Positions 60,638 to 63,844 of a stretch of 64,000 bases of DNA are shown one piece after another (position 1 is the stretch's first letter; every line of letters starts with the position of its first letter). This DNA comes from Octopus vulgaris (taxonomy: Eukaryota). The stretch is from NCBI GenBank assembly GCA_951406725.2, contig OX597815.1, positions 131,254,001-131,318,000 on the forward strand. The letters are read 5' to 3'. A model generated the notes under the pieces. It saw nothing but the letters and a program-made list of their open reading frames with translations, ran no database searches and was not told the origin of the DNA. Position numbers and translations under genes: made by a program.

Positions 60638-61253
60638 TTCAACCACGTGCTTTCACGCACCAACTTTTTCACCTATATATATATATATATATATATATAT
60701 ATATATATATATATATATATATGTATATATATATATATATATATATATGTGTGTGTGTAGATATGTATATATTTTTGTATGTTCTAGTTTTATTGTTTCA
60801 GATCTCTTTCCAATATTTACACACCAACACCTACACACTTATCTTGGCACATTTTCCATAACTTTTAATATCGTCAGTACTAATCACACCATCTCTTCGC
60901 ACATTTTCTTGGTATTCAGCAGGCAGAAATCCGTTTCAGTTTGCAGTGTACCAAACTGGGTTTTAGCATTTAGTTTCTCTATTATACATTGAGTTCAAAA
61001 CTCGAAGAGCTGTTTATCTTTCATACTGGTAAAGTTAATAAAAGAAGCAACATGTATGTAATTCTGTTCTATATTTAAGAGATGAGGAAATATGAGCGCG
61101 GGCTACAAACCCCAAGATCCCAAGTTCGATTCCAGGCAGTGACCTGAATACTACTACTACTACTACTACTACTACTACTACTACTACTACTACTACTACT
61201 ACTACTACTACAACAACTACTACTACTACTACTACTACTAATAATAATAATAA

Positions 61254-63114
61254 TATGTGGCATTTTCCAGGGTGACTCACAACCACCACTCCTCTTCTGT
61301 TTAGCCTTAATACCTCTCTCAAAACTGCTCAATGACGCGCAGTACGGATATAAAAAGTTTGATAAAAATATAAATCCTCTCATTTACATGGATGATTTAA
61401 AGCTCTTTGCAAAAATGACCAACAACTCAAGGGCTTACTAGCGATTGTCAAACAATTCAGTGATGACATCAGAATGCAGTTTGGCCTCGTTAAATGTGCA
61501 AAAGCTACCTTTATCAAAGGGAAAATGACAGAAACATCTAACGTTAACCTTGACCAGCAGAATATCATAAAAGAATTTGACCCAGCGGAAAACTACAAGT
61601 ATCTAGGGGTAATTGAAGGAGACGGAATAAGGCATTCAGAGATGAAGGAAAGGATCAGGAGAGAATGTTATCGCAGAGTAAGAGCAATACTCAAGACAGA
61701 GCTGAATGCGAGAAACAGGATCGAAGCGATCAATGCATTAGCCATACCAGTCGTGACTAACAGTTTCAATATCGTTAACTGGTCAATTACTGAAATATGT
61801 AATCTTGACAGAAAAATACGAAAACTGTTGACAATGCATAGAATGCACCACCCTAAGGCAGATAAAGAACGACTTTATCTGCCAAGAAAAGAGGGAGGCC
61901 GTGGACTTTTACAACTGGCAATAACAATGAAGATTGCCACAATTGGCCTAGACACCTACCTGAAAAACTCTGAGGACTGGATGTTGAAACTTGTCTCAAA
62001 ACATGAAAACAAGAAAGCATCATACTCAGTAACAAAACAGGCAAAGGAATACAACAAATTTCGGAATTAGAGAGACATACAAGAAACAGGCACAGAAAAA
62101 GCTAAGCGCATGAAAACCCGTGCCAAAACTGCGGCCTTAGATATTCTAAATGATAAATGGCAAGAAAAACCTCTGTATGGCAAATACCCAAAGAGAGCGA
62201 ATAATGCAGATGTTGACAAACCCCTGACCCATCAATGGCTAATGGCCTCTGGCTTAAAATCTGAAACAGAGGGGTTTATCATAGCAGCTCAAGATCAATG
62301 CCTACCAACAAGAAACTACCAGGCCAACATATTAAAGATCGGCAGTAGCCCAACATGTTGTGTATGTCAGCAACAAAATGAAACCATTGATCATGTGGTC
62401 TCCAAGTGCAGTCTTCTAGCGCCTACAGAGTATCTCAACAGGCATGATAGAGCTGCACAATATATTCACTGGGTAATCTTCAAAAACCTGGATTTGCTCC
62501 ATGAAAAAACTGGTGGGAACACAAACCACCCCCAGTCCTTGAAAATGACCACATCCCACTCCTCTGGAACTTCACCATTGAAACTGACAGAAAGATAGAT
62601 GCAAATATGCCAGACATCATATTGAAAGACTTCAGACAAAGAACATGCCTCTTCATTGATATGACTGTCCCAATCGATATAAACGTATCTGTCAAGACCT
62701 ACCAAAAACTGAGCAAATATAAAGATCTTGAATTAGAAATCAGCAAAATGTGGAACCTGAAGACTAAAACAATACCTGTTGTCATAGGTGCCCTGGGAAT
62801 GATAGCAAAAGGGGCTGTTTGCTCCCTAACTCAGATACCAGGAAACCCAAAAATGACAGAAATTCAAAAGATAGTGCTCATGGGAACTGCTCATATCCTA
62901 CGCAAAATACTTTCTATGTAATCTCAAGTTTTAAAACAAACATAATTTTCGTGTTTTTTTTTTTTTGACATTCACTAGTACAACACAAAATACAAAACCA
63001 AATATATGGCACACTAGGCATAACACCATCACGAACTTCCAACCTGTTGCCACTTGAGGTCTCTGGGTGAGACTTGGAGCCAACTTGTACAAATATAAAG
63101 CAAAAGTCAAACAT
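61254..63114 (+). mobile_element. 5'-truncated R4/Dong-like LINE (RT, CCHC finger, restriction-like endonuclease)
   Basis: GIFQGDS, YMDDLKL, YKYLG, LYLPRKEGGRGL, ETEGFIIAAQDQ, C..C...ETIDHVVSKC, RHD, PDI, VVIGALG. A few frameshifts. AAT repeats on both sides. Confidence 0.95.
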
Positions 63115-63283
63115 ATAATAATAATAATAATAATAATAATAATAATAATAATAATAATAATAATAATAATAATAATAATAATAATAATAATAATAATAAT
63201 AATAATAATAATAATAATAATAATAATAATAATAATAATAATAATAATAATAATAATAATAATAATAATAATAATAATAATAA
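63115..63283. repeat. (AAT)n tail
   Basis: Pure array directly after the LINE 3'UTR. Confidence 0.98.
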
Positions 63284-63335
63284 CACATCGAAAAATACCT
63301 TAAGAATGAGAACCCAGGTTCGAAATTTCTCCAAG

Positions 63336-63379
63336 ACACCTGATAAAGGCTGGAGCATATATCAGTCGAAACGTTGTGT
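63336..63379 (+). ncRNA. Minimal type I hammerhead with G8A change
   Basis: acac CTGATAA a ggctg gagcatatat cagtc GAAA cg TT gtgt. Confidence 0.75.
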
Positions 63380-63844
63380 TAACAACAAACAAGATGAGGA
63401 CAAATATCCGTCAAATGTGAATAATGTAAATAATGTTTAATGATGTATGTAATTATAGATTCTGAAGATTCTGCGTATATTCTTTAACTAGAAATGTGTG
63501 GCCATGCTCTTATATTCCCAATTACTATAATGCGCAGGAAGTTTTCCTTTTGCTGACTACAACAAAATAAACACATGGTAGCAAAAATTAAAAGATTTAA
63601 GTACAGACCTTTTACTTTGGTAAAATTATCAAACTGTCTTCATGTAATCCTTGAAGTGGAAGATGAAGGTGGAGTGAGAAATGTTTCTTTTGCGAGACGT
63701 ATATGGAAGGTCGAGGGCAGAAACATTGGATTTTTTCAATAACTTGGAGATGGAAATGATACGTCCCTAGAAATGATGGTTGTTGCGTTAAGGGATGCAC
63801 TGAGCCTGTCTGAGTAATCCTCTCCCCCACCGAGTGCTCTTATA

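What the first reader, a model, noticed from the sequence alone, without database searches (positions are those of the whole stretch)
61066..63440. Possible tRNA-head plus hammerhead short retroelement split by a Dong-like LINE
Seen: left of the LINE is a tRNA-like piece (stem-loop GGG-CTACAAA-CCC, B-box-like AAGTTCGATTCC, about 61095-61150) that runs into trinucleotide repeats. Right of the LINE's (AAT)n is a ~150-bp segment with a minimal HHR at 63336-63379. Inference: both halves belong to one element (Pol III head, (AAT)n spacer, HHR) into whose AAT tract the LINE inserted. A SINE-like head joined to a PLE-type ribozyme would suggest a SINE mobilised by Penelope machinery rather than by a LINE, an arrangement I do not know as standard.
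Basis: partly seen in the sequence, partly recalled or inferred. Interest (0 to 1): 0.75.

Follow-up and report, generated by a model that had tools for sequence, protein, structure and literature searches.

The report
Penelope retrotransposon with tRNA-derived promoter
The two flanks are halves of one decayed copy of the end repeat of an abundant protein-coding jumping gene (a Penelope-like element), later split by a second jumping gene; the unusual part is that this end repeat carries a piece of a tRNA gene that possibly lets the enzyme that normally reads tRNA genes read the whole element.

Summary
The two flanks do belong to one insertion. A 12-bp target duplication (61052-61063 and 63443-63454) encloses everything, and head and hammerhead body are neighbours at 25 of 29 other loci. 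It is not a separate SINE. Head + (AAT)n + minimal hammerhead + tail is the pseudo-LTR (pLTR) of an autonomous Penelope/Poseidon-type element with an 835-aa RT + GIY-YIG frame. The window holds a canonical 5'-truncated, head-to-head insertion with a one-sided tail. Its A box is missing and its ribozyme core is mutated. A younger (AAT)n-targeting LINE landed in the spacer. Short and ORF-linked copies have the same divergence (5.4%) and no diagnostic sites. The unusual feature is a tRNA-Arg-derived head (47/72 identical to the host tRNA, A and B boxes kept) 29 nt behind the stop codon. The 2.6-kb sense strand has no TTTT, whereas comparable spans of 30 relatives have a median of 14.5. This suggests RNA polymerase III transcription (about 45%); no RNA evidence was available. 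Pol III + hammerhead repeats are known from schistosomes. This scan reached the same reading earlier on other DNA of this genome (e1-8669850).

The parts
61052..61063 (+). Left copy of the 12-bp target site duplication ATGTATGTAATT
   Evidence: (family D14)
61064..61094 (-). Inverted arm: only the PLE 'tail' (3' extension; first codons of the ORF body) survives
   Evidence: consensus 145-180 matches 61094-61059, 92%
61095..61145 (+). 3' two-thirds of the tRNA-Arg-derived head (from position 24); A box absent in this copy
61124..61133 (+). B box GTTCGATTCC
61146..61254 (+). Left part of the trinucleotide spacer, (TAC)n then (AAT)n; target of the LINE
61255..63116 (+). 5'-truncated, frameshifted non-LTR retrotransposon: end of RT, CCHC finger, restriction-like endonuclease (PDI..KD...D motif), 3' UTR; inserts into (AAT)n tracts, Dong/R4-like
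63117..63284 (+). Right part of the (AAT)n spacer
63285..63442 (+). pLTR body without tail; contains the family's ORF start codon (63306) and the hammerhead; 8 differences in 149 nt from the family majority
63335..63380 (+). Minimal type I hammerhead (dimer type, ACGT palindrome; predicted cut after 63375); core G8 changed to A at 63345, so likely inactive
   Evidence: motif definition PMC4209133
63443..63454 (+). Right copy of the target site duplication

Best explanation
The two flanks are one 5'-truncated, head-to-head insertion of the end repeat (pLTR) of an autonomous Penelope/Poseidon-type retrotransposon, later split by an (AAT)n-targeting LINE, and this family's pLTR begins with a tRNA-Arg-derived segment that possibly serves as an RNA polymerase III promoter for the element. 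Shown: the unit order ORF end - 29 nt - tRNA head - (AAT)n - ATG - hammerhead - tail - ORF body; an 835-aa RT + GIY-YIG majority frame; one-sided tail; target duplication; recurrent LINE insertion into the spacer. Inferred from the anole Poseidon work: the protein nicks both target strands and primes cDNA at two RNA sites, one tail length apart, giving two arms of which only one has the tail, joined head to head where cDNA stops. Here the tail arm stopped after about 31 nt and the other arm inside the head. Inferred and untested (about 45%): in partial tandems the upstream head recruits Pol III, which reads through the TTTT-free unit. Short copies that keep the head might also be transcribed and moved in trans, but no lineage of them was detected. 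The window's own copy is dead (no A box, mutated core).
For: Target duplication around the whole composite. Head followed by body at 25 of 29 head loci (24 by script, plus L060, mis-oriented there but clear). Head upstream at 17 of 29 body loci and an inverted piece at 21 of 29. Of 40 loci picked by the ORF's 3' part, 33 continue into the head (six are likely duplicates on one contig, one is the query). Loci picked by the ORF's 5' part show body + tail running into the ORF, with a complete head upstream in L168 and L185. [quoted passage not shown] In fold-back copies with both arms, 14 of 17 have the tail on exactly one arm and none on both. Head 47/72 identical, ungapped, to the genome's tRNA-Arg(ACG); A box 9 of 11 identical. 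T runs of 4 or more: 0 in 2619 nt against 2.9-5.0 expected (P 0.025, 0.006, 0.0045 under three shuffles). Another PLE family of this genome has 8-9 per 2343 nt. 15 long copies of this family have 0-3, against 1-26 (median 14.5) in comparable spans of 30 relatives. About 300 loci fold back exactly at the head's 5' edge, against 511 hits that read on into the ORF.
Against: The PLE identity is firm; the Pol III step is not. No raw RNA reads were available. T-run-poor frames also occur without any tRNA head: 2 of 52 related ORF stretches have none and 5 of 52 have at most one, and the spans compared may include flanking DNA. Palindromes at the 5' edge of pLTRs and at inverted junctions are already described for PLEs (PMC3846280), so the fold-back hotspot needs no Pol III start site. 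Only 2 of 30 ORF-5' loci have a whole head upstream. The start codon lies 70 nt before the hammerhead cut, so an uncapped, uncut RNA would have to be translated. One head copy scores only 10.9 bits against the tRNA model, ARAGORN calls none in 15 loci, and only about five isotypes were compared. My 12-nt A-box pattern matched 0 of 27 heads; the box is of the 11-nt form, like the tRNA's own.
Confidence: 0.8

Rival explanations
1. Passenger head: an ancestral PLE picked up a tRNA-Arg pseudogene or SINE head with an AAT tail in its 3' UTR. The boxes are a leftover, the element is read by Pol II or by read-through like other PLEs, and the lack of T runs is chance plus an A-rich strand.
For: 5 of 52 related ORF stretches have at most one T run without a tRNA head. 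Other hammerhead repeat families of this genome have no head (1 distant B-box-like hit and 1 loose A+B hit in 30 loci). Described PLE promoters are Pol II type (PMC8557442; PMC3846280). All copies come from one burst, so selection on the boxes cannot be read from them.
Against: Zero T runs over the whole unit including the pLTR, whereas 20 of 23 related hammerhead regions contain them. The boxes differ from the tRNA only at degenerate places, while the rest of the head is about 58% identical. No free family with this head and another body was seen: the 4 body-less head loci run into four unrelated flanks.
Confidence: 0.45
2. One reading: a true SINE (Pol III head + Penelope tail) that amplifies on its own account using the PLE protein, in addition to the long element.
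For: About 300 loci begin exactly at the head's 5' edge, and 9 of 30 read-through copies end within 42 nt upstream of it. A head-initiated RNA would contain the hammerhead and tail. pLTRs alone suffice for mobilisation in trans in a rotifer (PMC3846280).
Against: 48 bodies from fold-back loci and 77 from ORF-linked loci have the same majority sequence and the same divergence, 5.4%. Only 2 of about 174 positions reach p<0.02, and neither is a fixed difference. Copies end at many lengths along the element.
Confidence: 0.2
3. Chance neighbours: an ordinary SINE head and an unrelated Penelope end that happen to flank the LINE, or a 3' transduction by the LINE.
For: None beyond both being common repeats.
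Against: One target duplication encloses both. Co-occurrence at 25 of 29 loci. 27 of 30 LINE 3' ends are not followed by this body.
Confidence: 0.02

Closest known systems
Penelope/Poseidon PLEs: Poseidon_Ac of the green anole (PMC11167929, parts 1-2 of 4 read) and Adineta Pen2a (PMC3846280, passages)
   Same: Single ORF of about 840 aa with RT and C-terminal GIY-YIG; ORF starts inside the pLTR before the hammerhead cut; 30-40-nt tail on one arm; inverted 5'-truncated arm; target duplication of about 9-12 bp; palindrome at the inverted junction.
   Different: Their pLTRs have no tRNA-derived segment in the text I read; TATA/Inr-type promoters are described for Pen2a. Here the pLTR begins with an A/B-box head and an (AAT)n spacer, and the sense strand lacks T runs.
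Minimal type I hammerheads of metazoan PLEs (Cervera and de la Pena 2014, PMC4209133, parts 1-2 of 4 read)
   Same: 5-bp stem I, extra base after A9, G10.1-C11.1 pair, palindrome at 15.2-16.2 with no stem III.
   Different: Nothing in the ribozyme; this copy's G8 is mutated.
Schistosome Sm-alpha / Sj-alpha SINE-like repeats (as summarised in PMC6765202, passages; the original paper was not held)
   Same: Pol III promoter followed by a type I hammerhead in a short repeat.
   Different: Those are non-coding tandem repeats with canonical hammerheads. This is the end repeat of a coding element with a minimal hammerhead, inserted as inverted pairs.
Animal non-LTR retrozymes as non-autonomous PLE derivatives (bioRxiv 10.64898/2026.07.22.740005, parts 1-3 of 5 read; supplements closed)
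   Same: Short hammerhead repeats that are pLTR derivatives and would use PLE enzymes.
   Different: Defined as head-to-tail tandem arrays; no tRNA head mentioned in the parts read.
Octopus tRNA-derived SINEs OK, OR1, OR2 (Ohshima and Okada 1994; only the citation seen; paper not held; tRNA-Arg origin of two of them is recalled)
   Different: Could not be compared; no sequence was available.
Dong/R4-clade LINEs (TAA-repeat target of Dong seen in PMC3774820 passages; Dong-R4 listed for Octopus vulgaris in PMC13282606)
   Same: Restriction-like endonuclease after a CCHC finger; insertion into (AAT)n.
   Different: Clade placement was not tested with a tree against named members.

Membership tests
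EN+ Penelope-like element | Single ORF with PLE-type RT and C-terminal GIY-YIG endonuclease | tested here: met
   835-aa majority frame; RVT_1 hit at E 2.7e-6, just under the curated cut-off; homologues carry PF00078/PF26215, some PF01541; the GIY-YIG domain of this family was recognised by motif, not by a Pfam hit
EN+ Penelope-like element | pLTR formed by partial tandem, with ORF start inside it | tested here: met
   L159, L167, L168, L185; ATG 70 nt before the cut site
EN+ Penelope-like element | Inverted 5'-truncated arm, 30-40-nt tail on one end only, target duplication | tested here: met
   14 of 17 two-armed fold-backs have one tail, none two; window duplication of 12 bp
EN+ Penelope-like element | Minimal hammerhead in the pLTR | tested here: met
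   Motif matches PMC4209133 and related loci; intact core plus palindrome in 24 of 122 copies; not intact in the window copy
Penelope/Poseidon clade | No CX2-5CxxC zinc finger between RT and EN | tested here: met
   Absent in the majority protein; present in the other PLE family of this genome; criterion from PMC8557442
Penelope/Poseidon clade | RT tree placement with named members | not tested
   No named reference sequences were on hand
Hammerhead ribozyme (functional) | Self-cleavage as a dimer or with protein | not testable with these tools
   Needs a bench assay
tRNA-derived SINE | tRNA-derived head with A and B boxes | tested here: met
   47/72 identity to host tRNA-Arg(ACG); boxes kept; the window copy lacks the A box
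tRNA-derived SINE | Non-autonomous family distinct from its partner apart from a shared 3' end | tested here: not met
   The head is part of the coding element (33 of 40 loci); no diagnostic sites and equal age of short and long copies
tRNA-derived SINE | Transcription by Pol III | not testable with these tools
   Only contigs, no raw RNA reads; indirect T-run evidence
Dong/R4 LINE (the insert) | RT, CCHC finger and restriction-like endonuclease in one ORF | tested here: met
Dong/R4 LINE (the insert) | Insertion into TAA/AAT repeats | tested here: met
   30 of 30 3' ends are followed by AAT repeats; most 5' junctions also lie in such tracts (by eye)
Dong/R4 LINE (the insert) | RT tree placement in the R4 clade | not tested
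   Homologues bore no informative names

The most novel reading that the evidence does not exclude
An autonomous, protein-coding retrotransposon that has swapped its Pol II promoter for a captured tRNA-Arg gene, is transcribed over 2.6 kb by RNA polymerase III, has purged every Pol III terminator from its coding strand, is translated from an uncapped RNA, and sheds thousands of SINE-like short copies from the same promoter: a direct intermediate between a Penelope element and a SINE or Sm-alpha-type retrozyme.
Probability: 0.4. Interest if true: 0.75.

Novelty: new variant of a known kind. Interest (0 to 1): 0.5.

Why it matters
How Penelope-like elements are transcribed and what their hammerheads do is open; only Pol II-type promoters appear in the papers I read. 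A family with an internal Pol III promoter and a terminator-free coding strand would give a clean test case: a defined start site, a box-mutation test, and the question of how an uncapped RNA is translated. It would also show one route by which Pol III + hammerhead repeats such as Sm-alpha could arise from a PLE end. In practical terms, short copies of this family look like tRNA SINEs and are probably annotated as such (inference). If the Pol III step is false, this is an ordinary PLE with a passenger tRNA fragment.

Tried and rejected
Rfam found no hammerhead or tRNA in the window (only spurious miRNA/snoRNA hits) or in 15 loci at gathering score; ARAGORN found none in those 15. A GIY-YIG family search of the genome returned other PLE families, not this one; they served as controls. 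RNA test: no RNA holder listed, and all runs were contigs, so starts, ends and strand could not be read; summed depths were not used as copy numbers. A search for tRNA heads in 80 related loci with an A+B pattern found none, and relaxed ARAGORN gave only noise. Rfam on seven T-run-poor relatives found no small-RNA head, so no independent case of 'head plus no T runs' was found. A MITE/Tc1-type reading of the inverted copies (CAGT ends) was rejected: the arms are unequal, only one has the tail, and duplications are 4-16 bp. The loop orientation of fold-backs did not predict which arm has the tail (6 against 3), so simple self-priming of one cDNA is not shown. The first majority build duplicated the ORF through a script error and was redone. 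Literature searches that found no description of a tRNA-headed PLE. The library lacks most subscription papers and Repbase reports, bioRxiv supplements were closed, and the repeat library of PMC13282606 was not in its supplement, so the family may already be catalogued.

Full report
Observation. The window holds, in order: a 12-bp repeat (61052-61063), 31 nt that are the reverse complement of a family tail (61064-61094), the 3' part of a tRNA-like head with a B box (61095-61145), a trinucleotide tract, a 1.86-kb LINE fragment, (AAT)56, a 158-nt body with a minimal hammerhead (63335-63380), and the same 12-bp repeat (63443-63454). The left flank matched 12 nt or more at 1 of about 3000 random window positions. 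The repeat is therefore a target duplication, and all that lies between, apart from the LINE, is one insertion. The hammerhead core here reads CTGATAA against the family's CTGATGA, and the A box is missing.

The halves belong together. The genome is a 2.8-Gb animal assembly, probably an octopus (inferred from size and repeats). The body has 4027 first-look candidates and the head query 546. Of 29 other head loci, 25 have the body directly downstream (24 by script; L060 was mis-oriented there and is clear). The other four run into unrelated flanks. Of 29 body loci, 17 have a head upstream and 21 an inverted piece. Contigs from runs labelled as four other organisms also cover head, hammerhead and, in part, the ORF start.

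It is the pLTR of a coding element. Upstream of many heads lies a shared sequence that encodes the end of a Penelope-type RT and GIY-YIG protein. Of 40 loci picked by that coding stretch, 33 continue into the head (six are likely duplicates on one contig, one is the query). At the other end, body and tail run straight into the ORF. L168 shows the partial tandem ORF end - head - (AAT)n - body - tail - ORF, and L185 has a whole head before the ORF. A majority sequence from 82 fragments is 2619 nt long, with an 835-aa frame that starts inside the body, 70 nt before the hammerhead cut, and stops 29 nt before the head. It lacks the linker zinc finger, which fits the Penelope/Poseidon clade (PMC8557442); no tree was built. 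The anatomy matches Adineta Pen2a: 842 aa, inverted pLTR, 31-bp tail on one arm, 9-bp duplication (PMC3846280). In 17 two-armed fold-back loci, 14 have the tail on one arm, 3 on neither and none on both. In the anole element the tail is the distance between two RT start sites, used on both target strands (PMC11167929). That explains the window's copy: a tail-bearing arm that stopped early, joined head to head to a tail-less arm that stopped inside the head. This mechanism is inferred by analogy, not shown here.

Not a separate SINE. 48 bodies from fold-back loci and 77 from ORF-linked loci share the majority sequence and a divergence of 5.4%. Two of about 174 positions reach p<0.02, and neither is fixed. 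Thirty read-through copies end from 18 to more than 1500 nt upstream of the head. There is, however, a hotspot at the head's 5' edge. The fold-back pattern has 416 strand hits, about 300 loci (72 distinct in the first 100 rows, counted by hand), against 511 hits for read-through. The same junction appears as a loose end in 112 contigs of an independent run, so it is not an assembly artefact. Mobilisation of head-initiated short RNAs in trans is therefore not excluded.

The LINE. It encodes the end of an RT, a CCHC finger and a restriction-like endonuclease, with frameshifts. All 30 sampled 3' ends are followed by AAT repeats, most 5' junctions lie in such tracts, and 3 of 30 (the window included) sit in this PLE's spacer; L002 shows a further LINE 3' end abutting the body. 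'Dong-like' is fair by target and domain order; clade placement was not tested.

The head. The majority of 27 heads aligns without gaps to the genome's tRNA-Arg(ACG) at 47 of 72 positions, the best of about five isotypes sampled. It starts at tRNA position 1. The A box (9 of 11 identical) and B box differ from the tRNA only at degenerate places, while the cloverleaf stems have decayed: one copy scores 10.9 bits and ARAGORN calls none of 15. Pol III stops at runs of four or more T (established knowledge). The sense strand of the unit has none in 2619 nt, against 2.9 to 5.0 expected (P 0.025, 0.006, 0.0045). Controls: another PLE family of this genome has 8-9 per 2343 nt. Other hammerhead repeat families here have no head and are T-rich. 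Fifteen long copies of this family have 0-3 runs, against 1-26 (median 14.5) in comparable spans of 30 relatives, and 20 of 23 related hammerhead regions contain such runs. Against: 2 of 52 related ORF stretches have no run and 5 of 52 at most one, without any small-RNA head. Palindromic 5' edges are a known PLE trait. Only 2 of 30 ORF-5' loci have a whole head upstream. An uncapped RNA would need cap-independent translation. No raw RNA reads were available. I put Pol III transcription of the element at about 45%.

Comparison with what is known. Minimal hammerheads in pLTRs (PMC4209133), inverted arms and tails (PMC8557442, PMC3846280, PMC11167929), pLTR-derived non-autonomous repeats (bioRxiv 10.64898/2026.07.22.740005) and Pol III + hammerhead repeats in schistosomes (PMC6765202) are all in print. 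Nine searches found no description of a tRNA-derived head inside the pLTR of a coding PLE. The library is incomplete, and the 1994 octopus SINE paper and repeat databases could not be read, so the short form may be catalogued as a SINE. The 2026 octopus repeat annotation does not mention hammerheads in its text or supplement. Earlier notes of this scan reached the same reading on other DNA of this genome; my reading was written down before I saw them, and they are not counted as evidence.

Verdict. Observation confirmed; interpretation partly supported. A decayed, canonical insertion of a Penelope/Poseidon-type element whose family carries an unusual tRNA-derived head: new variant of a known kind, interest 0.5.

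Noticed in passing
window 3016-3756 (-): 246-aa frame of a mariner-type transposase (Pfam Transposase_1, E 3e-24).
   Followed up: partly
window 8829-9290 (+): Another fragment of a restriction-like-endonuclease LINE, lying between (TAA)n and (AAT)n tracts.
   Followed up: no
window 60150-60280 and 60470-60640: Long inverted repeat about 200 nt apart, MITE-like, seen by eye.
   Followed up: no
L254-L259 (e.g. G000:C16:20835500-20841000): Young PLE family with intact 781-aa frames and a linker zinc finger; its 3' region has repeated TGACGTC and GATTGG motifs and a TATA-like box, which look like a Pol II promoter.
   Followed up: partly
L461-L490: At least two other very abundant minimal-hammerhead repeat families (1934 pattern hits), T-rich and often beside (TA)n, without a tRNA head.
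   Followed up: partly
L132, L141, L144, L145, L149, L151 (contig C31): The same PLE insertion repeated with several kb of shared flank, next to long open frames; likely a tandem gene family or segmental duplication.
   Followed up: no
L421:1500-1810: A related PLE in a metagenome contig has a long near-perfect inverted pLTR at its 5' end and no T run in 1653 nt of ORF despite 28% T.
   Followed up: partly
G000:C2:16238319-16238941: Four head-edge pattern hits at 150-nt spacing: a local tandem array derived from this element.
   Followed up: no
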